Assembly: GCA_964489425.1 (NCBI GenBank) | Contig: CAZAYP010000004.1 | Span: 24,956 to 88,955 of the forward strand | Reading direction: 5' to 3' | Origin: an uncultured Verrucomicrobiota bacterium | GTDB taxonomy: Bacteria; Verrucomicrobiota; Kiritimatiellia; RZYC01; CAZAYP01 | DNA length: 64,000 bases | Shown here: in pieces, positions 7,196 through 56,895 of the stretch | How the letters are laid out: each line of letters opens with the position of its first letter | How positions within the stretch are numbered: the stretch's first letter is position 1 | Notes under the pieces: generated by a model | The model's input: only the letters and a program-made list of their open reading frames with translations | What the model was told of the DNA's origin: nothing | The model's database searches: none | Position numbers and translations under genes: made by a program

Positions 7196-7852
7196 ATGCT
7201 CAGGCGCCTGCTGCGCGCGCTGGCCGCCATGGCCGCCGCGCTCGGCCTGCTGACTGTGGCGGTGGCGATCTGGGGGGTTCCCCGGCCCGTGGTGCAGTGG
7301 TTGAGCGCGGACCGGCTCCCGGACGGCATGGCCCCGGACTACATCATCGTCCTCGGCGGCGGCGGGATTCCCAGCGAGTCCGGCCTGATCCGCTGCTACT
7401 ATGGGGCCGCGGCGGCAAACAAATACACCAACGCCGCGATCGTCGTCAGCCTGCTCTGCGATTATGATCCAGACCAGCACGGCGTGGGACACATGCGCGA
7501 TGAACTGGTGCTGCGCGGCGTGGCGGCCGGCCGCATCCAGCTCGAAACCCGGGCGCGGAACACGCATGAGCAGGCGGCCAACATCCTGGCCTTGTTGGGC
7601 GCCGCCGCCAAGGACCGACCCGTGCTGCTGGTCACCTCGCGGCTGCACTTGCGCCGCAGCCTGGGCAGCTTCCGGCGGGTGGGCTTCACGACGGTGTATG
7701 GCGTTTCCACCCGGCCCGCGCCCGACGAGGGCGACCCCGGACGGTGGACCTTCCTGCGCTATGATCTGTGGCAGCACCTGGACACGGCCGTGGAATGCGC
7801 GCGGGAGCTGTGCGCGCTGCTGTATTACAAGGCCCGCGGCTGGACGGGCTGA
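7196..7852 (+). CDS. DUF218 (YdcF/SanA/ElyC-like) domain protein
   Basis: N-terminal TM, then YIIVLGGGG and HMRDE...L motifs typical of DUF218. Start placed at the ATG right after the upstream stop; the longer ORF from 7058 overlaps the ATPase gene. Confidence 0.6.
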   Translation: MLRRLLRALAAMAAALGLLTVAVAIWGVPRPVVQWLSADRLPDGMAPDYIIVLGGGGIPSESGLIRCYYGAAAANKYTNAAIVVSLLCDYDPDQHGVGHMRDELVLRGVAAGRIQLETRARNTHEQAANILALLGAAAKDRPVLLVTSRLHLRRSLGSFRRVGFTTVYGVSTRPAPDEGDPGRWTFLRYDLWQHLDTAVECARELCALLYYKARGWTG

Positions 7853-7880
7853 TACCATCCAGATCAGTACCGATCCGCCG

Positions 7881-8786
7881 TCAGTGCGCCGGGAGCGGGC
7901 GGGTCGAGGGCGAGACCACGACCTGGCTGCCGCCGATTTTTTGCTCCAGCGAATCCCGCAGGCGGTCGATCACCACCTGGACCTCGGCCATGGAACGCGC
8001 GCCATCGAACTCGAGGAAGATCTCGATGAAGATATCACCGCCCGACCGGCGCGAGCGCACCCCGTGGAACTTGACATACTCGTCGAAAAACGCCACCAGC
8101 TCGCGCACAATGATCATCTGCAATTCTTCTTCCAGCGTCCGGTCCATCAGGTCATACACCGTGTGCGCCACGACGCTGTACACCGAGAACACCAGGAATC
8201 CGACAATCACGAACGAGGCCGCGGGATCAATGTACGCGGACCATGCGTAGCCGCGCAGGGCATGACTCAGCACCAGCGCCAGTAGCACCGTGCCATCGGA
8301 AAACGCCTTGGCCCGGAACAGGCGCCACTGCGACTCCATCACCGGCGAGTAGGCGCGGCGCGCCACCGTGCGGTTCCGGAACCACAGCCAGGTGTTGACC
8401 ACCACGCCCAGCGTCATCATGACCGAGCCCAGCCACAAGCCGCCCGGATGCAGGAACTGCGGGTGCCGCAGGCGCTCGACGGCCGTGACCAGGACAATCA
8501 GCAGGGACACCAGCATGAACCCGGCCACGATCAGGCTGCTAAGGTTCTCCAGCTTGCCAATCCCGTAGTTGTACACGTGATGCTTGTTGCGGGCGACACG
8601 CACGATGGTGAGCCAGGCAAGGAACGTCGCCAACAGTTCCGTGGCGCACTTGAGCACATCGGCCAGCAGCGTAATGGAACTGGCCATGACCGCGGCCACG
8701 ATGTCCGGCAGCAGGAGCACGAAATCCACAACCAGGCTCAGCAGGATCGAGCGGCTTTTTTCCGCGTACCCGCGGCTGGCCGGCAT
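7881..8786 (-). CDS. Cation diffusion facilitator (CDF) family metal efflux transporter
   Basis: Six predicted TM helices. C-terminal cytoplasmic domain (IFIEIFLEFDG...EVQVVIDRLRDSL) typical of the CDF family. Start set at MPASRGY (ATG at 8786), immediately after the stop of the upstream GT gene. Confidence 0.65.
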   Translation of the reverse strand: MPASRGYAEKSRSILLSLVVDFVLLLPDIVAAVMASSITLLADVLKCATELLATFLAWLTIVRVARNKHHVYNYGIGKLENLSSLIVAGFMLVSLLIVLVTAVERLRHPQFLHPGGLWLGSVMMTLGVVVNTWLWFRNRTVARRAYSPVMESQWRLFRAKAFSDGTVLLALVLSHALRGYAWSAYIDPAASFVIVGFLVFSVYSVVAHTVYDLMDRTLEEELQMIIVRELVAFFDEYVKFHGVRSRRSGGDIFIEIFLEFDGARSMAEVQVVIDRLRDSLEQKIGGSQVVVSPSTRPLPAH

Positions 8787-8820
8787 ATGTAGCGAATGGC
8801 TCACGGATGAGGCGGGTGCG

Positions 8821-10896
8821 TCATGGCCGCACTTCCACCCGCTCCACGAGGAGGGGGATGCTGGCCCGGCCCCCCATGACGTCCTGCAGGGCCACGGTAT
8901 TTTTCCCGGGGGCCAACGGCAAGGGCCCGAACGTGCCGCTGTGGCGCTGGAACGGCGGGTAATCAACCGGCGCGCCGCCGGCCACCTGCACGCGCTTGGC
9001 GCCATTGATGGCCAGGCCATGGACCACGAGCGTGGCCTGGGTCGCGCCCGGCGCCAGGTTATAGACATCCAGGGTGGCCGCCGCGGTCATGACCCGGAAG
9101 TCCGTGAAGTCGCCCTGGCGCCAGGGCTTGAAGTAGCCCCAGTCCGGACCGAACAGCACCAGGAACGGCTTGTGCTCGGCGCGCCACTTGGCAAGGATGT
9201 CTTCCAGGGTGTTGTAATAGATTGTCACGATCAGCCGGTTGGTGCTGGGGGCGTAAAAGTCGCTGCGGTTGCCGAGTCCCATGGCCCGCAACTTCAAGGC
9301 CGCGAAGTTCGTGATCCCGGCCTGGCGAGCAAAATAGGTCTGCGGCCAGTCCCATGGGCCGATCTCCGGATCGTCCACGTAGGAGAGGTTCAGGGGCAAG
9401 TACGCGGCGTCCGGGAACTTTTCAAAGAAGTCTTTGGCCGTGTCGCGCCAGCGGTTGGCGAGAAAGGTCGCGGGCGGCTCGTTGGGCACGGTGAACGTGT
9501 ACGTGACGTTGGTTGACGGGTATACGGCCAACTCGTTCCATGGCTCGAACCACCGGTCCACCAGCACCAGGCTGTTGCGCGGCATGTGTTGATCAAACCA
9601 GGCGGTGATGTCGCGGTACGGTGTGGTCTTGCCGGTCAGCCGGGTGGCCTGCCAGTCCGGGTACACCGCCAGCAGCAGCGCCACGGCCAGTAGACCGCCG
9701 GCGCCCCACGCCAGCGCGCGCGCGGCGCGCGCGCCGCCCAGGGCCGGCAGGCCGCCGATGCCCAGCGCCACGCCCGCCACCAGGACCGGCAGGTAGCCGA
9801 CCAGGTAGCGGGATTCGTAGCCAGCCCCGGTCTTGCCGCGCGAGAGCAGGAAAAACAGGAACCCGGCCACGATCAAGCCTGGCCCCAGCCAGTAGGTCCG
9901 GTCGCGCCGCGCCCTGGCCACCAGCACGACCACGGCCAGGATCACGGCCAGCAGGGAAACTCCGGCGCGGATGGGCGTGGCGCCGAACAGGAACGAGGTG
10001 CACACCTCGCGGATCATGCGGCCCAGCAGGGTCCAGTCGATGAACTGCTTCATGCTGGCCGAAATCAGGGTGTTTTCCGAACCCGGCGTGGTGCCCAGGA
10101 TCTGCTTGAGGCCCCAGGGATAGATCAGCAACGGCAGGCTGACCAGCACGTAACCCGCGGCCAGCACCACCAGATTGAGCAGGCCGGATTGTTTCCTGCG
10201 CCACAGCAGCAGCTCGCAGATCATGACTGTCACGGCGCAAAACAGGGCGATGGACCAGATGGTTACCTGGCCGTACAACACCAACCCCGTGCCGAGCACC
10301 TGGGTGGCCACGTAGCCGATAGTGAACCGCTCCCCGCGCCGGACCCGCTGCACGGCCCACAGCGCCCCCAGGTAAACCAGCGCCGCGCCGAGCACGCCCG
10401 GAGGGTAATAGTAGGCCTCGCGCGTGACCAGGATATGGAACGTGTTGAACGCCATGAGCGCCGCGGCCACCAGGCCCACCCGCCGGCCGCCCAAGCGCAC
10501 GCCGATGGCATACAGCACCGGCACCGTGGCGATGCCCCACAGCGCGGCCGGCAGGCGTATGGTGACATGATTGAGGGGCAGGTGCAGCACCGTGATGAAC
10601 AGCTTGGTGAAGGCCAGCGGCGTGGGCATCTGACCGCCACCCACGAGGTTCATCCACTGCGTGCAGATGGCGCCCGGCGACAGCGGCTGCTGGCACACGG
10701 TCAGGAACAGGATCGTGTCCGCTCGCAGCGCAGACAGCCCCAGGTGCGCCAGCCGGAAATAGGCCGCCGCCGCCAGCACCAGGCCCAGCAACGCCAAGGC
10801 CATCTTGCGCGCCGGCCAATCCGGCAACGCGACCACCACGGGCGGGGGCGGGGGTGCGACGGATGCCGTCGGCGGGGTCCGCTTTTTCCGGCTCAC
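8821..10896 (-). CDS. PMT_2/ArnT-like polytopic membrane glycosyltransferase with a large C-terminal extracytoplasmic domain
   Basis: 691 aa. About 11 TM segments in the first 420 aa. LMAFNTFHILVTREAYYYP resembles the conserved PMT_2 region. Soluble C-terminal domain of about 270 aa. Its start overlaps the rmlC stop by 4 nt. Confidence 0.5.
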   Translation of the reverse strand: MSRKKRTPPTASVAPPPPPVVVALPDWPARKMALALLGLVLAAAAYFRLAHLGLSALRADTILFLTVCQQPLSPGAICTQWMNLVGGGQMPTPLAFTKLFITVLHLPLNHVTIRLPAALWGIATVPVLYAIGVRLGGRRVGLVAAALMAFNTFHILVTREAYYYPPGVLGAALVYLGALWAVQRVRRGERFTIGYVATQVLGTGLVLYGQVTIWSIALFCAVTVMICELLLWRRKQSGLLNLVVLAAGYVLVSLPLLIYPWGLKQILGTTPGSENTLISASMKQFIDWTLLGRMIREVCTSFLFGATPIRAGVSLLAVILAVVVLVARARRDRTYWLGPGLIVAGFLFFLLSRGKTGAGYESRYLVGYLPVLVAGVALGIGGLPALGGARAARALAWGAGGLLAVALLLAVYPDWQATRLTGKTTPYRDITAWFDQHMPRNSLVLVDRWFEPWNELAVYPSTNVTYTFTVPNEPPATFLANRWRDTAKDFFEKFPDAAYLPLNLSYVDDPEIGPWDWPQTYFARQAGITNFAALKLRAMGLGNRSDFYAPSTNRLIVTIYYNTLEDILAKWRAEHKPFLVLFGPDWGYFKPWRQGDFTDFRVMTAAATLDVYNLAPGATQATLVVHGLAINGAKRVQVAGGAPVDYPPFQRHSGTFGPLPLAPGKNTVALQDVMGGRASIPLLVERVEVRP

Positions 10897-11417
10897 GACG
10901 GGGCCCCCGGGGAAGACGCGTTGCGATCGCGCGGCGACAAGATGGGATCCTTGAGCGGCCAGGGAATGTTCAGCCCGGGATCGTCCCAGGCAATGGTTGT
11001 CTGCCGGCGCAGATCATAGTCCTCGGACTGCTTGTAATGCAGCATGGCCTTGTCGCTCAGAACCTGGAACCCCACGCCAAATCCGGGTGGGATCAGGAGC
11101 AGGCGGTGGTTATCGCCGGAAAGGATGAGGCCTTCCCACTGCCGGTACTGAGCCGCACCGGGGATGTTGTTGACCGCCACGACATACATGCGGCCGTGCA
11201 GGCAGGTGATCAGCTTCCATGCGCGGCTGTCGCAATGGATGCCCCGCACCACGCGGTGGCACGAGATGGACAGGTCGTCCTGGACGAACCGCACCTCGAC
11301 CCCGGATTTATGGAACAGGGTCTCGTTGTAGGTTTCCAGGAACTCGCCGCGGAAATCCTCGAACACCATGGGGCGGATGGACCAGACCCCGTCCAGCTTT
11401 GTTTTCTCAAAATGCAT
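10893..11417 (-). CDS. rfbC: dTDP-4-dehydrorhamnose 3,5-epimerase
   Basis: 174 aa, full-length cupin. RmlC motifs (FEDFRGEFLETY, VQDDLSIS...GIHCD, KLITCLHGRMYVVAVN). Confidence 0.85.
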   Translation of the reverse strand: MHFEKTKLDGVWSIRPMVFEDFRGEFLETYNETLFHKSGVEVRFVQDDLSISCHRVVRGIHCDSRAWKLITCLHGRMYVVAVNNIPGAAQYRQWEGLILSGDNHRLLLIPPGFGVGFQVLSDKAMLHYKQSEDYDLRRQTTIAWDDPGLNIPWPLKDPILSPRDRNASSPGAPS

Positions 11418-11525
11418 GCCTGTTCTCCCGTGCCGGCCGGGGGCGGCCGGACTCCATTAGTGCCTCATTATATACGCCGCCCTCCTTGAAGCAAACTCCG
11501 CCCGGATATTTTTGCGCGTAAGAAG

Positions 11526-12287
11526 GTGGACAAGTTCCCGGCCAGCCTCTATTTTTCCGGCATGACTGCTGTGCGGCAATCGCCGGCGCCGGTTGACTAC
11601 GAGGAACTCTGGAGCGGTGGCTGGAACGACGCCACCCGCTACGGACCCGCCTGCCGCCACCGGCGGCGGATTGTCGGCCACCTGGTCCGCGGACTGGGCG
11701 GCCGCCGCGTCTGCGACCTGGGCTGCGGCGACGGCATGCTCCTGGCCGAGCTGGCCGCCCACACGCCGGCCGAGTACTGGGGCTACGACATCTCGCCGGC
11801 CGCCATCCAGGCTGCCCAACGCCGCCTGCCGGCGGCCCATTTCGCGGCCATGGACCTGGCCGACTTCAAGCCGGAACAACGCTTTGACGTGGTGATCCTG
11901 TCCGAGGTGCTGGAGCACCTCGAGGATGACGCCGCCCTGCTCGCTCGCGTGGCGCCCCATGCGCGCCACGTCGTGGTTTCCGTGCCCGGCGGGCCGGCCG
12001 ACCAGGTGGACCGGCGCTTCGGTCACCTGCGCAACTACCATGGCCGCACGCTGCCTGATCTGCTGGAACGGAGCGGCTTCGAGTGTGTGTTTTTTCGGCG
12101 CTGGGGATGGCCGTTCCACGAAGCCTTGCAGGCCCTGATGCGCGGCGGGGACCAACCCGTGACCTCTGGCGCCTTCAGCCCAGCCAAACGCGCCGTGTCC
12201 CAGCTGCTGTACGGGCTGTTTTTCCTCAACGTGTTGCCGAGCGGTTCCCAGGTTTTTGCCGTGGGGAAAAGCCGCGTGGCCGGCTGA
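11526..12287 (+). CDS. Class I SAM-dependent methyltransferase
   Basis: Motif I VCDLGCGDGML, motif II-like DVVILSEVLEHL. The true start may be the internal Met at 11562. Confidence 0.7.
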   Translation: MDKFPASLYFSGMTAVRQSPAPVDYEELWSGGWNDATRYGPACRHRRRIVGHLVRGLGGRRVCDLGCGDGMLLAELAAHTPAEYWGYDISPAAIQAAQRRLPAAHFAAMDLADFKPEQRFDVVILSEVLEHLEDDAALLARVAPHARHVVVSVPGGPADQVDRRFGHLRNYHGRTLPDLLERSGFECVFFRRWGWPFHEALQALMRGGDQPVTSGAFSPAKRAVSQLLYGLFFLNVLPSGSQVFAVGKSRVAG

Positions 12288-12293
12288 ATCGTC

Positions 12294-13442
12294 ATGCGTA
12301 TTCTCCTGGTTTCCAACTACCAACCGCCGCACATGGGCGGGATCGAATACGCGGTCCAATCCTTGAAGAACTGCTGGCAGCGCGACGGGCACGAAGTCAC
12401 ATGGCTGACCACGGACCTGCCGCGCGGCGGCCGGAGTTCGACGCCCGACAACATCCGCGTGCCGGCCTGGAACATCCTGGAATCGCGCTGGCAGATCAAC
12501 TCGCCCCTGCCCTGCCCGGCGGCCTGGCCGGTGCTCCGCCACGAAATCGCGCGCGCGGACGTGATCAACCCGCACAGCCTCGCGCCGGGCCTGGCGGCGC
12601 TGGCGCTGCACCTGGCCTTGCGCCGGCACCGGCCGGTGGTCGCCACCCAGCACGTCGGCATCATCAACTTCAAGAATCCGCTGCTGGACATGGCCCAGAA
12701 ACAATTCATCTGCCGCATGGCGCGCTGGGGCATTCACCACGGAATGATCCTCACCTTTGTCGGACTGGCAGTGAAGGATTGGTTCCTGGAACACGCCCGC
12801 CTGCCGCCGGATCGCGTGGCCTGGACCCCGGTGGGCGTGGACCAGCAGGACTTCCACTTTGTGGACGACGGCGAACGCCGCCACTACCGCGAAAAGTGGG
12901 GGTGTGGCGGGCCGGGTCTGAACGTCTTGTTCGTGGGCCGGTTTTACGAGAAAAAAGGGCTGCCCCTGCTCCGCGACGTGGCGACGCAATGCCCGGGGAT
13001 CCGGTTCACGCTGTTGGGCGGCGGGCCGCTGGATCCGGCGGGCTGGGGATTGCCCAACATTCGAATCATTGCGCACGTGTCGACGGCGGAGCTGCGCGAG
13101 TTGTACGGCGCCCACGACCTGTTCATCATGCCCTCGTACGGCGAAGGCTGGCCCGCGGTGGTGTGCCAGGCCATGGCCTGCGGCCTGCCGTGCCTGGTGT
13201 CCGAGGAGGCGTTCAGCGGGCACCGCCGCGACGCCGGCCGGTTCCTCGTGTGCCGGCGGGAAGCCGCGGTGATCACACCTCTGCTGCAGGCCGCCGCGGC
13301 CGGCCAGGTCCCACTGCTGGCGCAACGCCAGGCCACGGCCGCCTACGCCGCGGTGGAGTGGGACTGGATGCGCACGGCGCGCACCTACGCCAAGCTGTTT
13401 GAGCAGGCCATGCGCGAGCGGCAGGGAATCTCAGCGCGGTAG
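12294..13442 (+). CDS. Glycosyltransferase family 4 (GT4, GT-B fold)
   Basis: N-terminal MRILLVSNY...GG(I/V)E; C-terminal EGWPAVVCQAMACGLPCL is the E-X7-E region of retaining GT4 enzymes. Confidence 0.8.
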   Translation: MRILLVSNYQPPHMGGIEYAVQSLKNCWQRDGHEVTWLTTDLPRGGRSSTPDNIRVPAWNILESRWQINSPLPCPAAWPVLRHEIARADVINPHSLAPGLAALALHLALRRHRPVVATQHVGIINFKNPLLDMAQKQFICRMARWGIHHGMILTFVGLAVKDWFLEHARLPPDRVAWTPVGVDQQDFHFVDDGERRHYREKWGCGGPGLNVLFVGRFYEKKGLPLLRDVATQCPGIRFTLLGGGPLDPAGWGLPNIRIIAHVSTAELRELYGAHDLFIMPSYGEGWPAVVCQAMACGLPCLVSEEAFSGHRRDAGRFLVCRREAAVITPLLQAAAAGQVPLLAQRQATAAYAAVEWDWMRTARTYAKLFEQAMRERQGISAR

Positions 13443-14063
13443 CGCCCGCAGGGTGCGGCCCAGCTTGCGGCCCAAAGCCTGCGCGCCGGTGAAGTACGAG
13501 TCTGGATTGGTTTTGCCATAGCCGACCCCGCCGGCGAACAGCGATCCCTCCAGCTTGGCGTTCAGAAAGCACGGCAGGTTGCCACGCATGAACCGGGTGG
13601 CATCGTCACAAAAAAAGCGCAACCAAACCGGCACCAGGCCGGCGCTGAGCAGCAGGATCGCCGCTTTTTTCCGGGGGTTACGCGGGCGCGGGCACCCCTT
13701 GAGCGGCCACCGGGCAGTGGGGGAACTCAAGACCCAGGTGATCCGCTCGATAAACACCTTCAGGATCCCGGTCATCGAACCATCAAACACGGGGCAGCCG
13801 AAAATATAGCCATCGGCCGCGTCCAGCTGCGGGTAAATCGCCTGCATGTCATCATCCACCGGGCAGCGGGCGATCCGCTTGGCCGGGTCGTCCCGAAAGC
13901 AGGTGAGGCAGGAAGTGCAGTAGCGGATGTTACGTTCCACCAGGTTGATCGTGTCCACCTGCACGTCCGGGATTTCCGCCCGCAAGCCGGCGGCTGCCTG
14001 CTCGATCAGCCGGTTGGTGGTCATGCCGATGCGGTAGCTGCCGCTGATGGCCACGACCTTCAT
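13431..14063 (-). CDS. NADPH-dependent FMN reductase-family flavoprotein (iron-sulfur-flavoprotein-like)
   Basis: MKVVAISGSYR flavodoxin-like start. Compact Cys cluster CTSCLTC...C reminiscent of the Isf family. Confidence 0.5.
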   Translation of the reverse strand: MKVVAISGSYRIGMTTNRLIEQAAAGLRAEIPDVQVDTINLVERNIRYCTSCLTCFRDDPAKRIARCPVDDDMQAIYPQLDAADGYIFGCPVFDGSMTGILKVFIERITWVLSSPTARWPLKGCPRPRNPRKKAAILLLSAGLVPVWLRFFCDDATRFMRGNLPCFLNAKLEGSLFAGGVGYGKTNPDSYFTGAQALGRKLGRTLRALPR

Positions 14064-15376
14064 TGCGCCCTCCGCTGCCATTTTTTCATTTTTTTCATCA
14101 TCTTGCGCGCCTGATCAAAGGTGCGCAGAAGCTGGTTGACGTCGCTGACATCCGTACCGCTGCCTGCCGCGATCCGCCGTTTGCGGCTGGCATTGATCAG
14201 GTCCGGCCGGCGGCGCTCTTTGGCCGTCATGCTGAGGATGATCGCCTCGACCTTTTTCATTTCGTCGCCCGAGCCCGCGGCCATCTGCTCGCGCGCGGCG
14301 GCCGGGATCTGGCCGGCGCCGGGGATCATGTCCATCAACCGCTCCAGGGGCCCCAGCTTCTTGAGCTGCCGCATCTGGGCCAGGAAATCCTCGAGGCTGA
14401 AGTTGTCCTTCAGCAGGCGCTCCTGCATGTCCACCATGTCATCCGTGGCCATGGCCGCCTGGGCTTTTTCCACGAAGCTGACCACATCGCCCATGCCGAG
14501 GATGCGCGCCGCCATGCGGTCGGGATAAAACGGCTCCAGGTCGGCCAGGCGTTCACCGCTGCCGACCATGAGGATCGGGCACCCGGTGACGGCCTGCACC
14601 GACAACGCCGCGCCGCCGCGGGCGTCGCCGTCCAGCTTGGTCAGGACCAGCCCGGTCAGCCCGACCTCCTTGTGGAAAGTTTCCGCCACGCGCACGGCTT
14701 CCTGGCCGATGGCCGCATCCAGCACCAGCAGGACATTGCGCGGCTTGACCGCCGCGCGCAAATCCTTGAGTTCCTGGACCAGTTCGGCGTCCACCTGGAA
14801 CCGCCCGCCGGTATCGTAGATGATGGTGTCCAGGTTGCGTGCGGCCGCCTCTTCGAGCGCGCGCCGGCCAAGGGCAGGCACGGTTTCGCCGGCCGCTGGC
14901 GCGAGCAGTTCGACGCCCACCTGGCCGGCAAGGATCCGCAACTGGTCCACGGCCGCGGGCCGGCGGATATCGCACGCGGCCAGCAGCACCCTCCGCCCGC
15001 CCTGCTTGAGGCGTTGGGCCAGCTTGGCGCTGGTGGTGGTTTTGCCGGCGCCATGCAAGCCGAGCATCAGGACCTGGGCCGGCGGATGAGACAAGTCCAG
15101 GTCGCGGTGCGTGCCGCCGAGCAGGTTGACCAACTCGTCGTGCACCCGCTTGATGACTTGCTGGCCCGGGGTGACGCTGTGCAGCACTTCCTCGCCCAGG
15201 CACTGCTCGCGCACGCGCTGGATAAAATCCTTGGCCACCTGGAAATTGACGTCCGCCTCCAGCAGCGCCAGCCGCACTTCGCGCAGGGCGTCCTGGATGT
15301 TCTTGTCCGTCAGCGCGCCATAGCCCCGCAGGTTGCGGAACACTTTTTGCAGGCCTTGGGTCAGGGTATCAAACAT
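14060..15376 (-). CDS. ffh: Signal recognition particle protein Ffh
   Basis: N domain, G domain (GLHGAGKTTT, DTGGR, TKLDGDARGG), Met-rich M domain. Start at MFDTLTQ (ATG at 15376); the longer ORF start looks spurious. Confidence 0.95.
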   Translation of the reverse strand: MFDTLTQGLQKVFRNLRGYGALTDKNIQDALREVRLALLEADVNFQVAKDFIQRVREQCLGEEVLHSVTPGQQVIKRVHDELVNLLGGTHRDLDLSHPPAQVLMLGLHGAGKTTTSAKLAQRLKQGGRRVLLAACDIRRPAAVDQLRILAGQVGVELLAPAAGETVPALGRRALEEAAARNLDTIIYDTGGRFQVDAELVQELKDLRAAVKPRNVLLVLDAAIGQEAVRVAETFHKEVGLTGLVLTKLDGDARGGAALSVQAVTGCPILMVGSGERLADLEPFYPDRMAARILGMGDVVSFVEKAQAAMATDDMVDMQERLLKDNFSLEDFLAQMRQLKKLGPLERLMDMIPGAGQIPAAAREQMAAGSGDEMKKVEAIILSMTAKERRRPDLINASRKRRIAAGSGTDVSDVNQLLRTFDQARKMMKKMKKWQRRAQ

Positions 15377-15471: not shown

Positions 15472-18066
15472 TTGAGGCAGGCGCCGGTCTGGGGCATAGT
15501 CCGGCGCATGCGCAGACTGTGGCATAACCGGGTTTGGCTAGCGCTGGCCATCACGCTGGGGGTATGGGTTTGGTTCGCCTGGCCCCTGCCCCGCCATGCC
15601 GCGACCGCCATCCCTTTTGGCGCCACCAAGTTTTCCGCGGCTGGGCGTAATGAGCGCATGGTGCCGGGCGATCACCTGCAACTCCTGTACCACCTCTGGC
15701 TGGGACAGGACATGGTTTTCGGCCGCACGCCGCTGTTTTACAACCTGTACGAATTCAATACCGGCGACGATGAGGCGCGCCGGGCGCCCAGCTCGTACTA
15801 TGTTCCGTTTTCGCTCCTGTTCGCCCTGGGCTTCCACGCGGGCGGCATGGCGCTGGGCTGGAACCTGGCCGGGTTGCTGGCCTTGTGGGGCACGTATTAC
15901 TTCACCTGGCGGCTGGTGCGGCGCTACAACCGCGACGAGATCTGCGCGGCCCTGGCCGCGCTGCCGGCGATCACCCTGCCGGTGCTGTGGATCAACCTCG
16001 GCGGCGGCAGCCCGGCCGGGTTTGCCATGATGTGGCTGCCGGCGCTGCTCTGGGGCCTGGACCTGGCGCTGCGCGAGGACCGCGTCGGTGGCGGCCTCCT
16101 AGCCGGTGGGGCCATCCTGGGGGCCTCGTTCTGCGACATGCACGTCTTCTTTTTCGGCGCCCTGCTGCTGCCCGGTTGGGGCTTGGTGGCGATCCTGCAG
16201 CGGCCGGGATTCTGGCGCCGGCCATGGGCCGCGTGGCGGCGCACGGGCGCGGCCCTGGCGCCGCTGGCCGCGGGCTTGGCGCTGGCCGTCGGCATATCGC
16301 AGTTGATCGTGGCGCAGCGCACCCAGCAGACCGGCGGCGGCAACGCCGACCGGCTGGTGCCGGAAGTGGCCCTGTTCACCCCCACGCCAGCCGGGCTCTT
16401 TTCCTGGCAGACGCACGGCGTGCAAGACCACATTTACCTGGGCTATGCCATCCTGCTCCTGCTCGCGCTGGGCGCCGCCGCAGCCCTGGCGCTGCGCCGC
16501 CGGCTCGACTGGCGGCTCGCGGTCACCGGCGCGCTCCTGCTGGCCGGCATCACCGGCGTGATCCTACTGGCGTTCGGGCCGCTGGGACCAGCCGACGGCC
16601 TGCTGTTCAACGCCCTGCGCAAGCTCGCGCCACCCTTCCGCATGGTCCGCCAGCCGGCCAAGATATTCTGCCTCATGCCGGTCCTGCTGTCCGCAGCCGC
16701 TGCCGTATCCTTTGGGTTGATGGCTGGCTGGTGGACCCGACCGTGGGCCCGCCGCCTGGCCATGGCGGGCCTGGCCGCCCTGGTGGTGCTGGATTACCGG
16801 CTGCAAACCCGGGTGCTGCTCTGCGGCCTGGATCCCGGCCAAGGCGCGTACCAGGCCGTGTCCGCATCGGCCGGGGAATCCGGATCGCCGCTGGCGCTGG
16901 TCATCCCGTTGTGGCCCGGCGACACGCATTTCTCGGCCATTTACCAGTATTATGCCATGCTCTACCACATCCGCCTGGTCAACGGATACAAGCCCACCCT
17001 GCGCAAGGCGTATGTCGAGGAGATCTACGCGCCGCTGGAAAGCATCAACTGGGGCGTGCTGACCGAAGCCCAGGCAGACAACCTGCAGCGCCGGGGCGTA
17101 GGCTACCTGATCCTGCACGAGGACCTGTTCCCGGAGAAAGTCAGCCCCCTGCCCGCAGGCCATACGCTGCAGCAGTTCCTGCGAAACCCGCGCCTGCGCC
17201 TGATCGCGCAGGATGGCCCAGTGTGGGCTTTTGCGCTGGTCCCGGCCGACGCACCCGCCGCCGATCCCACGTCCGTTCTGCCGGAATGGCCGTACGCGTT
17301 CACCCACCGCCACCTGCAACTCGAATACCCGGCCCATTCCAACGGTGTGGTCATGGCGGACACAGACGCCGGCGCCGGGCAGTTCCGCCGCCTGCAGGCC
17401 GGCGACGTCGTAACCCTCGGCCCCGGGTTGGGATTGATGACCAACCAGCTCCGCTGGCTGGTCCGCCTGCGCGGGCATGCCACGCTGGCCACGGTTTCCA
17501 CAACGGACAACTCCGGCACAACCCCCGACACGGCCGACATCCAAGCCGACGCATGGACATGGCAGGCGTGGCCCGCCCCAGCCGCCCAGGCACCGGTCCA
17601 GGCCACGCTGGTGATTTCCAACATCACCGGCACGGTGGATCTCGACATGGCCATCCTGGCCCACGGGCCATGGCCCGCCACATGGCAGCGCGGCGAACGC
17701 ATGACGCTGCCCGCGGCCGGCTTTTTCCACGCCGGGCACACGGACCCCAGCGATGGCGCCGTGGTGTTGACCGCAGATCGCGACCGGCGTGGGGCCGTGT
17801 TTTATGGCCCCAAGATGCCGCTGCCCGCCGGCCGCTACCGCGCGGACCTGGCCTTCAGCACGCCGGCAGCCCCGAACACCGTGTTGGGATTCTGGGCGGC
17901 ATTCAGCCCGCCAGGGAATGAGTCAGGCCGCGCAGACATTGTGGCTGGCCAGCCAGCGACTTTGGAATGGTTGCAGAGCGGCAACCTGCCGTTCTCGCTG
18001 GTGGTTGACTTTGCCGGCGCGGCCGACCTGCGCCTGCTGGCGGTCACGGTCGAGCGGGTGGACTGA
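15472..18066 (+). CDS. Large polytopic membrane protein of unknown function. About 480 aa with 10-12 TM segments, plus a C-terminal soluble domain of about 380 aa.
   Basis: 864-aa ORF; hydrophobicity pattern only. No catalytic motif recognised. The architecture resembles lipid-linked glycosyltransferase/polymerase-type proteins. Confidence 0.4.
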   Translation: MRQAPVWGIVRRMRRLWHNRVWLALAITLGVWVWFAWPLPRHAATAIPFGATKFSAAGRNERMVPGDHLQLLYHLWLGQDMVFGRTPLFYNLYEFNTGDDEARRAPSSYYVPFSLLFALGFHAGGMALGWNLAGLLALWGTYYFTWRLVRRYNRDEICAALAALPAITLPVLWINLGGGSPAGFAMMWLPALLWGLDLALREDRVGGGLLAGGAILGASFCDMHVFFFGALLLPGWGLVAILQRPGFWRRPWAAWRRTGAALAPLAAGLALAVGISQLIVAQRTQQTGGGNADRLVPEVALFTPTPAGLFSWQTHGVQDHIYLGYAILLLLALGAAAALALRRRLDWRLAVTGALLLAGITGVILLAFGPLGPADGLLFNALRKLAPPFRMVRQPAKIFCLMPVLLSAAAAVSFGLMAGWWTRPWARRLAMAGLAALVVLDYRLQTRVLLCGLDPGQGAYQAVSASAGESGSPLALVIPLWPGDTHFSAIYQYYAMLYHIRLVNGYKPTLRKAYVEEIYAPLESINWGVLTEAQADNLQRRGVGYLILHEDLFPEKVSPLPAGHTLQQFLRNPRLRLIAQDGPVWAFALVPADAPAADPTSVLPEWPYAFTHRHLQLEYPAHSNGVVMADTDAGAGQFRRLQAGDVVTLGPGLGLMTNQLRWLVRLRGHATLATVSTTDNSGTTPDTADIQADAWTWQAWPAPAAQAPVQATLVISNITGTVDLDMAILAHGPWPATWQRGERMTLPAAGFFHAGHTDPSDGAVVLTADRDRRGAVFYGPKMPLPAGRYRADLAFSTPAAPNTVLGFWAAFSPPGNESGRADIVAGQPATLEWLQSGNLPFSLVVDFAGAADLRLLAVTVERVD

Positions 18067-18183: not shown

Positions 18184-18465
18184 TTGAATGCCAAGATTCT
18201 GACGGTTACTGAGGCGGTAAGGCACTTCTCCGACTATGTCAGTCGGGTCGCCTATCGTCATGAGACGTTCGTGTTATGCAAGGGGAAGAAACCCGTGGCG
18301 GAGCTTCGCCCATTGCCCAGCGGGATGCGGCTAGGTGAGTTGCCCGCCATGCTGCGCTCGCTGCCCCACCTGTCTCCATCGGATGCCGCCACCTTTGGCA
18401 AGGACCTCGAGGCGGCGCGGGCTACCCTCGGAGCCAGCGATCTGAGGGATCCATGGGCATCCTGA
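18184..18465 (+). CDS. Type II antitoxin, Phd/YefM family
   Basis: 93 aa starting at TTG. The N-terminal pattern KILTVTEAVRHFSDYVSRVAYRHETFVLCKGKKPVAELRPL is typical of Phd/YefM. Overlaps the downstream PIN gene. Confidence 0.7.
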   Translation: MNAKILTVTEAVRHFSDYVSRVAYRHETFVLCKGKKPVAELRPLPSGMRLGELPAMLRSLPHLSPSDAATFGKDLEAARATLGASDLRDPWAS

Positions 18466-18857
18466 TCGATAGCAGCGTTTTAATCGACATCGAGAGATCC
18501 GGCGCGGATATATCCAAGTACATTCGGGGCCACGAAGAAGAAGATACGTTTCTCTCCGTTGTTTCCGCCAGTGAGTTGCTCCATGGAGTACACCGGGCAA
18601 CAGATGCCAAAACCAAAGCGAAGCGGCTGGCTTTCGTCGAGGGCGTGCTGGCGGCCATTCCCGTCCTCGCGATTGATTTGGCTACCGCGCGATCTCACGC
18701 GCGGTTGTGGGCCGCACTGGCCAGGCAAGGCAAGATGATCGGCGTTCACGATTCATGGTTGGCCGCGACTTGCATTGCGCATGGGCTGCGGCTCGCCACG
18801 AGCAACCTCCGAGAGTTCAAGCGAGTGCCAGGCCTGGACCTGGAGCAGTGGCAGTAG
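18453..18857 (+). CDS. vapC: Type II toxin, PIN-domain ribonuclease (VapC-like)
   Basis: 134 aa. N-terminal ILIDSSVLID (first acidic residue), conserved later acidic positions, about 130 aa length, 13-nt overlap with the antitoxin gene. Confidence 0.75.
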   Translation: MGILIDSSVLIDIERSGADISKYIRGHEEEDTFLSVVSASELLHGVHRATDAKTKAKRLAFVEGVLAAIPVLAIDLATARSHARLWAALARQGKMIGVHDSWLAATCIAHGLRLATSNLREFKRVPGLDLEQWQ

Positions 18858-20437: not shown

Positions 20438-21340
20438 TCACCATAGCGGCGACGGGTACTGCCTGTCCAGCACCATGTCACGGATGCCGGCCATGACGGC
20501 GGCCTTGTCTTCCGGATAGGTCACGCCCAGCCACTTCGCACTTGTGGCCAGGACCCGCACCCGCGCCGCGCCACATCGAATGGCCGCAGCCACGACCGAT
20601 GGCAATTGGAACTCGGCCTTGAGATGGTTCCCGGACCCGGCCAGAAAGCCCTTGAATTCTTGTTCCAGCACCGGGAACAGGGTTGGGGTGAAACCCCAGC
20701 AGTTCATGGATACCGGCGTATCCGCCGGCAGTTCCAGGACGCGCCCCTCCTCCACACACCGGGCCCCGCCCCCGCTCTTCTCGACCTGCTGCCGCTCCAC
20801 AATGGCGTCCAGGCTGCCGTCCGCGGCCATGTGGCATACGCCCCGCGAAACCTGTCCGTTGTCCGACAAGGTATTGGCGATGCGGAACCCGACCATGCAG
20901 TAGTCGGTAGCGGTGGCGGACAACCCAGCCAGATGGCCGGCCAGCGCCCGGAACGATTCAGCGCCGTAGAAGTCGTCCGCATTAATCACCGCGAACGGCT
21001 CGTGCACCGCGGTGCGCGCCGCGTAGACGGCATGGGCCGTGCCCCACGGTTTGGCGCGCTCCGCCGGCACGGCATACCCGGCCGGAACATCCGCGAGTTG
21101 CTGGAACACGCATTGCCATCCAGCGGCCCGCGCTGCCCAGCGCGCGGCGACCGACGCCGTGAACGCATCGGCAAAATCCTTCCGGATCACGAACACCACC
21201 TTGCCAAACCCCGCCCGCAGCGCATCAAAAATGGAGTAATCCATCACGATTTCGCCGGCCGGCCCCACCGGCTCCACCTGCTTCAGGCCACCATACCGGC
21301 TGCCCATGCCCGCGGCCATGATGACTAGGGTGGGCTTCAT
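20438..21340 (-). CDS. Sugar-phosphate nucleotidyltransferase (NTP_transferase family)
   Basis: MKPTLVIMAAGMGSRYGG... is the G-x-G-x-R nucleotidyltransferase N-terminal motif. Start at the internal Met (ATG at 21340). Confidence 0.65.
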   Translation of the reverse strand: MKPTLVIMAAGMGSRYGGLKQVEPVGPAGEIVMDYSIFDALRAGFGKVVFVIRKDFADAFTASVAARWAARAAGWQCVFQQLADVPAGYAVPAERAKPWGTAHAVYAARTAVHEPFAVINADDFYGAESFRALAGHLAGLSATATDYCMVGFRIANTLSDNGQVSRGVCHMAADGSLDAIVERQQVEKSGGGARCVEEGRVLELPADTPVSMNCWGFTPTLFPVLEQEFKGFLAGSGNHLKAEFQLPSVVAAAIRCGAARVRVLATSAKWLGVTYPEDKAAVMAGIRDMVLDRQYPSPLW

Positions 21341-25211: not shown

Positions 25212-26177
25212 ATGACTGAAAGCAAGCTGGTCTCCATCGTGGTCCCGTTCCTGAACGAGGAAGCCAATCTCCCGCTCTTGTACGACCGCCTCGTCGCGGC
25301 CCTGGGCCATGGTCCCGAGCGCCTGGAAATGCTTTTCGTGGACGATGGCAGCAGTGACGGATCCGTGCCGTGGCTCAAGGCGCGCGCGGCCGAGGATCCC
25401 CGGGTCAAGCTGCTGCGGCTGTCGCGGAACTTTGGCCACCAACTGGCGATCACGGCCGGGTTGGATTACGCCGGCGGCGACGCGGTAATCATCATGGACG
25501 CGGACCTGCAGGATCCGCCCGAGGTCACGCCTGAACTGCTGGCCCAGTGGCGCAACGGCTTCGAGATCGTTTACGCCGTGCGCCGGTCGCGCGAAGGCGA
25601 GACGTGGATCAAAAAAATGCTGGCCGCCGGCTTCTACCGGATCTTCCACCGGATCACCAAGGTCAACATGCCCATGAACGCCGGCGATTTCCGCCTGCTG
25701 GACCGGCGCGTGGTGCGGGCCATGCGCCAGGTGCGCGAGACGCACCGCTTCATGCGCGGCCTGACCTGCTGGACCGGGTTCGCGCAAACCGCAGTGCACT
25801 ATGACCGGGCCGCCCGGCACAGCGGGGTCACCAAGTACCCCACGTGGAAGTCCGCCCAGCTCGCCTGGGACGCGATCACTTCATTTTCCGGAACCCCGCT
25901 GCGTTGGGTCACGGGCCTGGGCATCCTCATCGCCTTGCTGGGCGTGGCCAAGGCGGTGGAGATCGTGGTGCAAAAGATTGTCAACCCGGACGGCTTCGTG
26001 GCCGGCTGGACCACCACGGTATGTTTTGTCCTGGTGATCGGCGGCCTGCAACTCCTGTGCCTCGGCCTGATCGGCCAGTACGTCAGCCGGGTTTTCGAGG
26101 AAACCAAGAAACGGCCGCTGTATTTTGTGCGCGAAACCGTTGGGGAGTTGAACGGTCCGCCGGATACGGGCTGGTAA
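25212..26177 (+). CDS. GT2 polyprenol-phosphate glycosyltransferase (ArnC/GtrB/dolichol-phosphate-mannose-synthase-like)
   Basis: VSIVVPFLNEE, DDGSSDGS, DADLQDPPE (DXD) motifs and two C-terminal TM helices, the usual GtrB/ArnC topology. Confidence 0.85.
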   Translation: MTESKLVSIVVPFLNEEANLPLLYDRLVAALGHGPERLEMLFVDDGSSDGSVPWLKARAAEDPRVKLLRLSRNFGHQLAITAGLDYAGGDAVIIMDADLQDPPEVTPELLAQWRNGFEIVYAVRRSREGETWIKKMLAAGFYRIFHRITKVNMPMNAGDFRLLDRRVVRAMRQVRETHRFMRGLTCWTGFAQTAVHYDRAARHSGVTKYPTWKSAQLAWDAITSFSGTPLRWVTGLGILIALLGVAKAVEIVVQKIVNPDGFVAGWTTTVCFVLVIGGLQLLCLGLIGQYVSRVFEETKKRPLYFVRETVGELNGPPDTGW

Positions 26178-26224
26178 GGCCCGCGAAACACAAGCGCTCG
26201 ACTCAGAGCCAACAGGAGATGCCC

Positions 26225-38247: not shown

Positions 38248-38591
38248 GCCCCGCTCCTTGCTAAACACCACGTTGCGTACTGCTTAAAATCGATATGCTG
38301 CTCAAGATGATCAATATACCCAAAAGGGAGGCTAAAGTTAAAATTGCAGGACCACTTTTTCATGAGATCAATACTACTCTTAAAATCGGCCAAAACTCAG
38401 CTAAATCAAGTAATTCGCCGATCTATAGACTAAAAGGTGCTTGTTCCCTGTATTTCTCACGACCAACCATCGCCATCAGCATAGCCGGCGGCCCGGGGGA
38501 AAAATGCCCCAAAGTCGTTATTTTGAAATATCTTATTTAACTGTTCAACAACAGGTTGTGGAACGGCATCTGCACTTTCGCTTCAACCGAC

Positions 38592-56767: not shown

Positions 56768-56895
56768 GTTTCAAGCCTTTGCTTCCCCGGCCGATAGCCA
56801 TCCAACCAGGATCGCGGGCTCACGGCATGCACCATGCTAACACAAGCCAGGCGACTCGTTAAGCACGACCATGGTATTTTAAAGACGAGGTTAGT

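What the first reader, a model, noticed from the sequence alone, without database searches (positions are those of the whole stretch)
8821..13442. Clustered and dispersed protein/lipid glycosylation toolkit: PMT/ArnT-type membrane GTs, rmlC, methyltransferase, GT4, plus an ArnC-like GT2 elsewhere
Within about 13 kb there are two PMT_2/ArnT-family polytopic glycosyltransferases (1-1369 with the canonical RDEPRFAE...KPxLxYW loop, and 8821-10896). One is translationally coupled to rmlC (10893-11417), followed by a SAM methyltransferase and a GT4. Elsewhere the window has an ArnC/GtrB-like GT2 (25212-26177) that would make the polyprenol-phosphate sugar donor such enzymes use, a nucleotidyltransferase (20438-21340), an SDR epimerase plus methyltransferase operon (54927-56767), and a further large polytopic protein (15472-18066). 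PMT-family enzymes O-glycosylate Ser/Thr-rich secreted proteins in Actinobacteria, and ArnT homologues modify lipid A. The same window encodes several very Ser/Thr-rich secreted proteins (the 2,550-aa repeat protein, the C1 peptidase tail, the beta-propeller protein). A methylated-deoxyhexose protein O-glycosylation pathway is therefore a reasonable but unproven hypothesis. rmlC is present without rmlA, rmlB or rmlD in the window.
Basis: partly seen in the sequence, partly recalled or inferred. Interest (0 to 1): 0.55.

Follow-up and report, generated by a model that had tools for sequence, protein, structure and literature searches.

The report
Uncharacterised membrane glycosyltransferase locus, PVC bacterium
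A Kiritimatiellota-like bacterium carries a compact four-gene sugar-modification locus built around a membrane glycosyltransferase of a small, unstudied family, which probably adds lipid-carried sugars to a cell-envelope glycan in the periplasm rather than O-glycosylating proteins.

Summary
The genes are at the stated coordinates. On the minus strand, an RmlC-like epimerase (10893-11417) overlaps by 4 bp a 691-aa polytopic protein (8821-10896). On the plus strand lie a SAM methyltransferase and a GT4. The 691-aa protein is not a PMT or ArnT member: PMT_2 scores 18 bits, below the cutoff. A confident AlphaFold model shows a GT-C(A) fold about equally distant from ALG, PMT, PglB and ArnT. It also has a highly conserved periplasmic alpha/beta domain with no PDB match and a C-terminal CBM6/35/36-like beta-sandwich. 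The family is small (about 320 clusters at 50% identity) and nearly confined to Kiritimatiellia, Verrucomicrobiota and Lentisphaerota MAGs. In 75 related loci it is linked to orthologues of the window's GtrB-type GT2 (25212-26177; 22 loci), to the GT4, to methyltransferases (33 of 72 loci), and to variable NDP-deoxyhexose or heptose genes. Best reading: a Gtr/Arn-like periplasmic glycosylation module that uses a polyprenyl-phosphate sugar, with a glycan acceptor favoured. Protein O-glycosylation is unsupported but not excluded. Most of the "dispersed toolkit" is unrelated. Moderate interest.

The parts
8821..10896 (-). 691-aa GT-C(A)-fold membrane glycosyltransferase of an uncharacterised family restricted to the PVC superphylum (Planctomycetota-Verrucomicrobiota-Chlamydiota group)
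9643..10809 (-). Transmembrane GT-C core (residues 30-418). Invariant R48 and D60 (first extracytoplasmic loop, EL1, 'ALRADT'; D60 codon 10717-10719). Nearly invariant E160 with invariant Y162 and Y164 ('SREAYFY').
   Evidence: Invariant columns of alignment A1. Helix map of the model. 32% mean identity to homologues.
9172..9639 (-). Periplasmic alpha/beta domain (residues 420-575). It is the most conserved part of the family and holds the motif VDRWFEPWNE (residues 446-455, nt 9532-9561). It has no solved structural relative.
8824..9159 (-). C-terminal CBM6/35/36-like beta-sandwich (residues about 580-691)
10893..11417 (-). RmlC-like NDP-4-keto-6-deoxy-sugar 3,5-epimerase (174 aa). Its stop overlaps the GT-C GTG start (GTGA).
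   Evidence: PF00908 164 bits. TIGR01221 157.1 against cutoff 155.75. 1EP0 135 bits, with the RGIH, WKLI and HYK residues aligned. Campylobacter GDP-heptose epimerases score about 100 bits. Sequence read.
11418..11525 (.). 108-bp divergent intergenic region between rmlC and the methyltransferase; presumed bidirectional promoter region (inferred)
   Evidence: Gene coordinates. The consensus promoter scan was not above shuffles.
11526..12287 (+). Class I SAM-dependent methyltransferase (253 aa)
   Evidence: Methyltransf_23 69.9 bits. Orthologues at 49-55% identity lie between the GT4 and the GT-C in L028, L042 and L044.
12294..13442 (+). GT4 (GT-B fold) glycosyltransferase (382 aa), 7 nt after the methyltransferase
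   Evidence: Glyco_transf_4 61.8 bits and Glyco_trans_1_4 64.3 bits. Orthologues at 51-61% identity in 10 related loci, a median 1.7 kb from the GT-C.
25212..26177 (+). GtrB/PgfS/ArnC-type polyprenyl-phosphate glycosyltransferase (GT2, 321 aa); inferred donor-making partner, 14 kb from the GT-C in this window
   Evidence: 290 bits to Synechocystis GtrB 5EKP; ArnC 150-164 bits. PgfS model 268 bits, below cutoff. Orthologues at 57-68% identity lie a median 2.4 kb from the GT-C in 22 of 75 loci.
20438..21340 (-). Nucleotidyltransferase-fold protein (300 aa) of the 3PNN family; a possible accessory on weak evidence
   Evidence: 307 bits to 3PNN; weak GalU and AglF-like hits. Orthologues at 54-55% identity lie directly after the GT2 in L007 and L008 only.

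Best explanation
The segment 8821-13442 is a compact, divergently transcribed envelope-glycan locus of a Kiritimatiellota-like (PVC, diderm) bacterium.

Its core is a GT-C(A)-fold integral-membrane glycosyltransferase of an uncharacterised family almost restricted to the PVC superphylum.

Proposed mechanism:
1. The GtrB-type GT2 (25212-26177) loads a hexose from a nucleotide sugar onto polyprenyl (undecaprenyl) phosphate at the cytoplasmic face.
2. The lipid-linked sugar is flipped. The flippase has not been identified in the window.
3. The GT-C uses its periplasm-facing EL1 Asp60 and Glu160 site to transfer the sugar to an acceptor. The acceptor is held by the conserved periplasmic alpha/beta domain and the CBM-like beta-sandwich.
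4. The acceptor is most likely a cell-envelope glycan (LPS O-chain or core, capsule or lipoglycan). The adjacent cytoplasmic GT4 helps to build it from NDP-sugars tailored by the RmlC-like epimerase and the SAM methyltransferase.

Shown here:
- gene content and coordinates;
- the GT-C fold;
- the domain architecture;
- the family's distribution;
- conserved linkage of the GT-C with the GT2, the GT4 and methyltransferases.

Inferred:
- the donor lipid;
- the identity of the sugar;
- the catalytic residues;
- the class of acceptor;
- that all these genes serve one product.
For: Fold and architecture:
- AF2 model with pLDDT 91.7.
- An invariant Asp60 follows TM1, and the nearly invariant Glu160 and invariant Tyr162/Tyr164 lie in the next outward loop.

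Partner GT2:
- 290 bits to GtrB 5EKP.
- Orthologues at 57-68% identity lie within a median 2.4 kb of GT-C relatives in 22 of 75 loci. By contrast, the GT-C relatives themselves are only 27-44% identical to the window protein.
- Repeated GT-C + GT2 pairs occur in L043, L049, L070, L075 and L076.

Other linked genes:
- GT4 orthologues in at least 10 loci, in the same divergent arrangement.
- A methyltransferase immediately upstream of the GT-C in 22 of 64 loci.
- Neighbourhoods rich in polysaccharide genes: SDRs, NTP-transferases, GHMP/SIS/HAD heptose-type genes, C-methyltransferases, UDP-glucose/GDP-mannose dehydrogenase-family genes (UDPG_MGDP_dh), extra GT2/GT4/GT10, and SGNH esterases.

Host: Ffh is closest to Kiritimatiellia MAGs.
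Against: - No GtrA, SMR or Wzx-type flippase lies near the locus. The candidate 430-aa polytopic protein seen in relatives is absent from the window.
- In this window the GT2 is 14 kb from the GT-C, with housekeeping genes (ffh, smc) in between.
- rmlC is linked to the GT-C only in this genome, and no dehydratase or reductase partner is in the window.
- The periplasmic alpha/beta domain is far more conserved (56% identity) than the TM core (32%), while neighbouring sugar genes vary. This pattern fits a conserved acceptor better than a variable O-antigen.
- The CBM-like fold is a common jelly-roll, and sugar binding is untested.
- There is no biochemical or genetic evidence for any family member.
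Confidence: 0.5

Rival explanations
1. One reading: the GT-C O-glycosylates Ser/Thr-rich secreted proteins with a methylated deoxyhexose, taken from a polyprenyl-phosphate sugar made by the GT2.
For: - There is a precedent for GtrB-type GT2 plus GT-C protein O-glycosylation of Ser/Thr-rich regions in streptococci (PMC12041528).
- The only profile hit of the family among solved-structure sequences is the protein O-mannosyltransferase TMEM260, and it is marginal (E 2.9e-4, 22.6 bits).
- The strongly conserved periplasmic domain could recognise a protein feature.
- LamG-type secreted proteins occur in a few related loci.
Against: - PMT_2 scores below its cutoff. There is no DE motif and no MIR domain.
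- The C-terminal CBM-like domain and the polysaccharide-type neighbourhoods point to glycans.
- The window's candidate substrates have only 13-25% S+T, in folded repeats rather than disordered S/T tracts. They are 20-40 kb away.
- No substrate-like gene is conserved next to the family.
Confidence: 0.15
2. OST- or ligase-like en bloc transfer. The GT2 starts a glycan on polyprenyl phosphate. The GT4 and other cytoplasmic GTs extend it, and methyltransferases or oxidoreductases tailor it, as AglJ, AglG and AglP do in archaea. After flipping, the GT-C transfers the whole oligosaccharide to a conserved acceptor recognised by the alpha/beta domain.
For: - The best Foldseek hits are STT3 and AglB (E about 1e-7). 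There is a weak archaeal STT3 hit.
- A constant quartet of GT2, GT4, a modifier and the GT-C recurs, with variable sugar-pathway genes around it.
- The acceptor-side domain is the most conserved part.
- A Trp- and acid-rich invariant motif lies about 30 residues after the last TM, positioned like WWDYG. This is an analogy only.
- A 12-14 TM protein is fused to a GT2 in L043 and lies adjacent to the GT-C in about 10 loci. It is a possible oligosaccharide flippase.
Against: - There is no WWDxG motif and no DxD or ExD in EL1.
- Polyprenyl-monophosphate-linked oligosaccharides are not established in bacteria (own knowledge).
- Tandem GT-C + GT2 pairs look like single-sugar modules.
Confidence: 0.15
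3. ArnT-like modification of lipid A or the LPS core by the 691-aa GT-C, with the ArnC-like GT2 as donor synthase.
For: - The GT2 matches ArnC at 150-177 bits.
- A conserved acceptor would explain the conserved periplasmic domain.
- The host is a diderm.
Against: - The ArnT equivalog gives no hit for this protein.
- No arnA, arnB or arnD-like genes are present. The GT2 is closer to GtrB and PgfS than to ArnC.
- Several paralogues per genome and tandem pairs are unlike arnT.
- The separate ArnT-like gene at 2-1369 is a better candidate for such a role.
Confidence: 0.08
4. There is no common pathway. rmlC, the GT-C, the methyltransferase and the GT4 are neighbours by genome shuffling and act in different processes.
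For: - rmlC linkage is unique to this genome.
- The GT2 and the nucleotidyltransferase are separated from the locus by ffh, smc and other housekeeping genes.
- The operon may also include an unrelated CDF transporter 35 nt downstream.
Against: - The GT4, modifier and GT-C arrangement recurs, as does GT2 proximity, across phylogenetically distant MAGs.
- rmlC and the GT-C overlap by 4 bp.
Confidence: 0.1

Closest known systems
Gtr-type three-component periplasmic glycosylation (GtrA/GtrB/Gtr* of Shigella and Salmonella; reviewed in PMC11127046)
   Same: A GtrB-type GT2 (290 bits to GtrB 5EKP) is genetically linked to a GT-C-fold enzyme with a periplasmic site. Repeated GT2 + GT-C pairs occur in relatives.
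   Different: - The GT-C is unrelated in sequence to Gtr* enzymes.
- It carries a large conserved alpha/beta domain plus a CBM-like C-terminus.
- No GtrA flippase was found.
- The locus is chromosomal, not prophage-borne.
- It is tightly associated with methyltransferases and a GT4.
GT136 ORF12 system of Citrobacter youngae O1/O2 (PMC11127046), and the mycobacterial EmbA-C and AftD
   Same: A GT-C(A) core fused to a carbohydrate-binding-module-like periplasmic domain. A polyprenyl-phosphate sugar donor. A polysaccharide acceptor.
   Different: - There is no sequence similarity.
- The donor synthase here is a GtrB-type hexosyltransferase, not a PRPP-dependent phosphoribosyltransferase.
- The extra alpha/beta domain has no counterpart.
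Streptococcal GtrB/PgtC2 and PgfS/PgfM1 protein O-glycosylation (PMC12041528)
   Same: A PgfS/GtrB-like GT2 (268 bits to the PgfS model) plus a GT-C transferase acting outside the cytoplasm.
   Different: - Those GT-Cs are of the YfhO family; this one is not.
- The PgfS score is below the equivalog cutoff of 500.
- No Ser/Thr-tract substrates were identified.
- The host is a diderm.
ArnC/ArnT lipid A aminoarabinose pathway (GT83)
   Different: There is no ArnT family hit for 8821-10896 and no arnABD genes. The GT2 is closer to GtrB.
PMT / GT39 protein O-mannosyltransferases and TMEM260
   Same: A GT-C(A) fold. A weak PMT_2 hit and a weak TMEM260 profile hit.
   Different: The Pfam score is below the cutoff. 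There is no DE motif, MIR domain or TPR domain. The C-terminal architecture is different.
Archaeal Agl pathway (AglJ GT2, AglG/I/E GTs, AglP methyltransferase, AglB oligosaccharyltransferase)
   Same: The gene-set logic is the same: a polyprenyl-P GT2, soluble GTs, a methyltransferase and a GT-C. There are weak AglJ, AglF and archaeal STT3 hits.
   Different: All the hits are far below their cutoffs. There is no WWDYG motif. The setting is bacterial. The resemblance is in logic only.

Membership tests
PMT / GT39 (Pfam PMT, PMT_2) | Score at or above the Pfam gathering threshold | tested here: not met
   8821-10896 scores 18.3 bits on PMT_2 against a cutoff of 26.1. By contrast, 2-1369 scores 62 bits.
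PMT / GT39 | Asp-Glu (DE) motif in the first luminal loop, and a MIR domain in a luminal loop (own knowledge of the family) | tested here: not met
   EL1 has 'ALRADT' with a single invariant Asp60. There is no DxD, ExD or DxE in the first 120 residues. No MIR-like beta-trefoil appears in the model or the Pfam hits.
PMT / GT39 | Transfers mannose to Ser/Thr of proteins | not testable with these tools
   Needs glycoproteomics or an enzyme assay.
ArnT / GT83 | Match to the ArnT equivalog model (NF009784) | tested here: not met
   There is no hit for 8821-10896. The protein at 2-1369 scores 110.5 bits against a cutoff of 567.
ArnT / GT83 | Genomic context with arnA, arnB, arnC and arnD | tested here: not met
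   No such genes are in the window or in the 75 related loci. The GT2 is closer to GtrB (290 bits) than to ArnC (150-164 bits).
GT-C(A) structural class | Polytopic core with EL1 juxtamembrane helices, structurally similar to solved GT-C(A) enzymes | tested here: met
Three-component periplasmic glycosylation (GtrB-like synthase + flippase + GT-C) | A polyprenyl-phosphate glycosyltransferase that is present and linked | tested here: met
   GT2 at 25212-26177, with 290 bits to GtrB. Orthologues lie next to the GT-C in 22 of 75 loci.
Three-component periplasmic glycosylation | A dedicated flippase (GtrA, SMR or MATE) | tested here: inconclusive
   None lies near the locus. A MatE gene is 50 kb away. 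Relatives have an unclassified 430-aa protein with 11-14 TMs next to the GT-C, fused to a GT2 in L043. That protein is absent from the window.
Three-component periplasmic glycosylation | Transfer of a single sugar from polyprenyl-P-sugar to a pre-formed glycan | not testable with these tools
   Needs lipid analysis and in vitro transfer assays.
Oligosaccharyltransferase (STT3/PglB/AglB, GT66) | WWDxG motif in the periplasmic domain and an acidic DxD/ExD motif in EL1 (own knowledge) | tested here: not met
   There is no WWD anywhere and no DxD or ExD in EL1. The STT3 model TIGR04154 scores 18 bits against a cutoff of 450.
RmlC (dTDP-4-dehydrorhamnose 3,5-epimerase) | Equivalog model score, and catalytic His/Lys/Tyr | tested here: met
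   TIGR01221 scores 157.1 against a cutoff of 155.75, a marginal pass. In the alignment to 1EP0, the His of RGIH, the Lys of WKLI and the Tyr of HYK are conserved.
RmlC (dTDP-L-rhamnose pathway) | Pathway context with rmlA, rmlB and rmlD | tested here: not met
   None of these is in the 64-kb window. The closest homologues (54% identity) lie with small NTP-transferases, SDRs and GHMP kinases, or in flagellin-glycosylation loci. The rest of the genome was not available.
GT4 (GT-B retaining glycosyltransferases) | Glyco_transf_4 N-domain plus Glycos_transf_1 C-domain, both above cutoff | tested here: met
   61.8, 64.3 and 50 bits.

The most novel reading that the evidence does not exclude
The family could be a new class of bacterial periplasmic "glycan ligase". 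It would transfer en bloc a methylated oligosaccharide assembled on polyprenyl monophosphate to a conserved envelope or protein acceptor. The GtrB-like GT2 would start the oligosaccharide, and the GT4 and methyltransferases would extend and tailor it. The acceptor would be recognised by the previously unseen VDRWFEPWNE alpha/beta domain. This would be a bacterial counterpart of archaeal dolichyl-phosphate-based Agl glycosylation.
Probability: 0.13. Interest if true: 0.75.

Novelty: new variant of a known kind. Interest (0 to 1): 0.38.

Why it matters
Kiritimatiellota and their PVC relatives are abundant polysaccharide degraders whose own envelope glycans are essentially unstudied. If the proposal holds, this small family would found a new GT-C (CAZy) family with a new periplasmic acceptor-side domain. 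It would also give a recognisable genetic signature: GtrB-like GT2 + GT4 + methyltransferase + GT-C. That signature could be used to predict methylated surface glycans in these phyla. For the specific question raised, the work removes a tempting but unsupported annotation ("PMT-type protein O-mannosyltransferase"). It also shows which of the scattered "glycosylation" genes in the window really belong together.

Tried and rejected
- The promoter and terminator scan of 7700-14200 gave nothing above shuffles.
- A literature search for Kiritimatiellota glycosylation found nothing relevant.
- A search for a GtrA-like small flippase around the GT-C in 75 loci found no recurrent small polytopic family.
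- The 864-aa polytopic protein (15472-18066) was tested as a second GT-C or YfhO. It has no Pfam or NCBIfam hit and no homologue in any related locus. It is not included in the system.
- The terpene-cyclase-like gene after the GT2, FMN reductase, the MFS sugar transporter, the SDR plus methyltransferase at 54.9-56.8 kb and PAP2 show no orthologue-level linkage to the family in relatives. The SDR and that methyltransferase gave only low-identity family-level hits. They are not included.
- The SDR as RmlB or RmlD is rejected. Its best match is HpnA/OleD-like.
- My first length-based gene call mis-called the methyltransferase/GT4 region. I replaced it with a conservation-weighted call.

Full report
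**Observation**

The window has about 65% G+C, so I called genes by GC3 and later by conservation. The reported genes are real.

- 2-1369(-) is the N-terminal 456 aa of an ArnT/PMT_2-like protein. PMT_2 scores 62 bits. The ArnT model scores 110 bits against a cutoff of 567. The motifs IDRDEPRFAE and FDKPILTYWL are present.
- 8821-10896(-) encodes a 691-aa polytopic protein.
- 10893-11417(-) is an RmlC-type cupin epimerase (PF00908 164 bits; TIGR01221 157.1 against a cutoff of 155.75).
- 11526-12287(+) is a class I SAM methyltransferase.
- 12294-13442(+) is a GT4.

The rmlC stop and the GTG start of the membrane protein overlap as GTGA. A downstream ATG at residue 32 cannot be excluded. The methyltransferase and GT4 are divergent from rmlC and the GT-C, not downstream of them.

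Flanking genes are housekeeping or unrelated. They include ParB, PEPCK, oligopeptide ABC ATPases, DUF218, a CDF transporter, FMN reductase, Ffh, a PIN toxin pair, a sugar MFS transporter and SMC.

**What the 691-aa protein is**

It is not a recognisable PMT or ArnT. PMT_2 scores 18.3 bits, below the cutoff of 26.1. The only NCBIfam hit is an 18-bit match to an archaeal STT3 model.

With an alignment of 40 homologues, AlphaFold2 gives a confident model (pLDDT 91.7, pTM 0.90).

- Foldseek agrees: STT3, AglB, EmbC, AftD, PglB and ArnT at E 1e-7 to 1e-4, with TM-scores of only 0.35-0.46.
- A family profile searched against PDB sequences finds only TMEM260, marginally (E 2.9e-4).

The family-invariant residues sit where GT-C active sites lie. 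R48 and D60 are in "ALRADT" just after TM1. The nearly invariant E160 and the invariant Y162/Y164 are in "SREAYFY" in the next outward loop.

After the last TM come two periplasmic domains.

There is no WWDxG motif and no DxD or ExD in EL1.

**Distribution**

Only 42 homologues (30-44% identical) were found by the word-indexed search. An exhaustive profile search finds 320 clusters at 50% identity with E<=1e-30 among 1.84 billion representatives. It then merges into the general GT-C background: 7,894 clusters at 1e-10 and 35,809 at 1e-3.

Seventy-three genome loci carry relatives. Nearly all are Kiritimatiellia, Verrucomicrobiota or Lentisphaerota MAGs, with a few Sumerlaeota, Planctomycetaceae and Gemmatimonadales. 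Some genomes have two or three paralogues. The window's Ffh is 65-72% identical to Kiritimatiellia-type MAG proteins. The host is therefore a PVC diderm.

**Comparative context**

I called and clustered genes in 75 related loci and annotated cluster representatives.

- *GT2.* The strongest association is with a GtrB-like GT2. Orthologues of the window's GT2 at 25212-26177 (57-68% identical) lie a median 2.4 kb from the GT-C in 22 of 75 loci. That GT2 scores 290 bits against Synechocystis GtrB (5EKP), 150-164 bits against ArnC, and 268 bits on the PgfS model. In five loci, GT-C + GT2 pairs are repeated in tandem.
- *GT4.* Orthologues of the window's GT4 (51-61% identical) occur in at least 10 loci. 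They are usually arranged as GT2> <GT4 <modifier GT-C>, where the modifier is a methyltransferase or a GFO/IDH/MocA oxidoreductase.
- *Methyltransferases.* A class I SAM methyltransferase from nine non-orthologous clusters is the immediate upstream neighbour of the GT-C in 22 of 64 loci. One lies within three genes in 33 of 72 loci.
- *Variable genes.* The rest is typical polysaccharide-locus content: SDR epimerases and dehydratases (33 loci), NTP-transferases (20), TylC3-like C-methyltransferases (20), GHMP kinase/SIS/HAD genes of a GDP-heptose-type pathway, UDP-glucose/GDP-mannose dehydrogenase-family genes (UDPG_MGDP_dh), B12-radical-SAM enzymes, DegT aminotransferases, further GT2/GT4/GT10 genes, SGNH esterases, and a YfhO-like 830-aa protein followed by another GT2 (13 loci).
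- *rmlC.* Its linkage to the GT-C is unique to this window. Its nearest relatives (54% identity, a short form of about 170 aa) lie with small nucleotidyltransferases, SDRs and GHMP kinases, or in flagellin-glycosylation loci. They are not in rmlBDAC operons. Campylobacter GDP-heptose epimerases score almost as well as true RmlCs. The nucleotide and the sugar remain open.

**Mechanism**

The evidence fits the widespread scheme of periplasmic glycosylation from a polyprenyl-phosphate sugar, defined for Gtr systems, ArnC/ArnT, CsbB/YfhO, GacI/GacL and the GT136 system (PMC11127046).

1. A GtrB-type GT2 charges undecaprenyl phosphate.
2. The lipid-sugar is flipped.
3. A GT-C transfers the sugar outside the cytoplasm.

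The fold, the periplasmic conserved acidic residues and the GT2 linkage are shown here. The donor lipid, the sugar and the catalytic roles are inferred.

For the acceptor, I favour a glycan for two reasons. First, the enzyme ends in a CBM-like module, as do EmbC, AftD and GT136 ORF12, whose CBMs bind polysaccharide acceptors. Second, the neighbourhoods are polysaccharide-type. The adjacent GT4, the methyltransferase and the RmlC-like epimerase would then supply or assemble methylated deoxy-sugar parts of the same product.

There are weaknesses.

- No flippase gene is near the locus. In relatives an unclassified protein of about 430 aa with 11-14 TMs lies next to the GT-C and is fused to a GT2 in L043. 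It is absent from the window.
- In this genome the GT2 is 14 kb from the GT-C.
- The acceptor-side alpha/beta domain is much more conserved than the catalytic core, while the sugar genes vary. That pattern would suit a conserved acceptor, with an en bloc or ligase-like mechanism, at least as well.

The donor-synthase idea and the methyl-sugar theme gain comparative support. The assignment to PMT/ArnT families and the protein acceptor do not.

- The PMT defining features are absent: a score above threshold, the DE motif and the MIR domain.
- The proposed substrates are folded repeat proteins with 13-25% S+T. None has a 50-residue window above 38%. They are 20-40 kb away and are not conserved near the family.
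- Much of the "dispersed toolkit" is unrelated. The SDR at 54.9 kb is HpnA/OleD-like. The 864-aa polytopic protein has no detectable relatives in any related locus. None of these other genes has an orthologue next to the family in relatives.

Protein O-glycosylation by a GtrB-plus-GT-C pair does have a precedent in streptococci (PMC12041528). It stays a live rival at about 15%.

**Verdict**

This is a genuine, coherent glycan locus centred on an uncharacterised, PVC-restricted GT-C family with a new periplasmic domain. It works most like a Gtr/Arn-type periplasmic glycosylation module. It is a new variant of a known kind and is of moderate interest. The acceptor and the sugar need experiments.

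Noticed in passing
window 15472-18066 (+): An 864-aa protein with an N-terminal polytopic half (at least 8 hydrophobic segments) and a C-terminal soluble half of about 440 aa. It has no Pfam or NCBIfam hit and no homologue in any of the 75 related loci. It could be another orphan membrane glycosyltransferase-like protein.
   Followed up: partly
L043:10027-12054; also L010:12031-13323, L012:11964-13334, L036, L055, L059, L075: An unclassified protein of about 430 aa with 11-14 TMs (no Pfam hit) lies directly next to the GT-C in about 10 related loci. In L043 it is fused to a GT2 domain (675 aa). It is a candidate lipid-linked-sugar flippase. It is absent from the window.
   Followed up: partly
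e.g. L011:12012-15517; 13 related loci: A YfhO-like polytopic protein of about 830 aa, followed by a second membrane-anchored GT2, lies immediately downstream of the GT-C. It looks like a second synthase/GT-C pair in the same locus. Six loci instead have an unknown polytopic protein of about 540 aa after the GT-C.
   Followed up: partly
window 30595-38271 (-): A 2558-aa secreted-looking protein made of tandem repeats of about 100 aa (S+T 25%). It has no Pfam family above cutoff; the only hit is a sub-threshold DUF6878 match.
   Followed up: no
window 26219-27451 (+): A signal-peptide protein with weak squalene-hopene-cyclase/prenyltransferase-repeat similarity lies directly after the GtrB-like GT2. 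It is not conserved next to the GT-C or the GT2 in relatives.
   Followed up: partly
window 18184-18857 (+): A small two-gene pair: a 93-aa protein plus a 134-aa PIN-domain protein (Pfam PF01850 on the identical Logan contig). It is a likely toxin-antitoxin module lying between the 864-aa protein and the MFS transporter.
   Followed up: no
L079:450-7510 (Terasakiella sp. A23): The closest named relative of the window's RmlC-like epimerase lies in a flagellin, Maf, GT41 and FlaF locus, beside a small nucleotidyltransferase. This short RmlC subgroup may serve flagellin or surface-glycan deoxy-sugar pathways rather than dTDP-rhamnose.
   Followed up: partly
window 56863-57690 (+) and 58365-60328 (+): A lone flgD-like gene lies between a methyltransferase/SDR pair and a PAP2 phosphatase. 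It is followed by a 2-hydroxyacyl-CoA dehydratase D-component and its BcrAD/BadFG-type activator ATPase.
   Followed up: no
L010 + L037 (CAZMXS01); L029, L054 and L068 (JAAZAB01); tandem copies in L043, L049, L070, L075 and L076: Several MAGs carry two or three paralogues of the GT-C family, sometimes in tandem and each with its own GT2. This suggests diversification of donor or acceptor specificity.
   Followed up: partly
window 7881-8786 (-): A CDF cation-efflux gene starts 35 nt after the GT-C stop on the same strand. It may be co-transcribed with rmlC and the GT-C although it is functionally unrelated.
   Followed up: no
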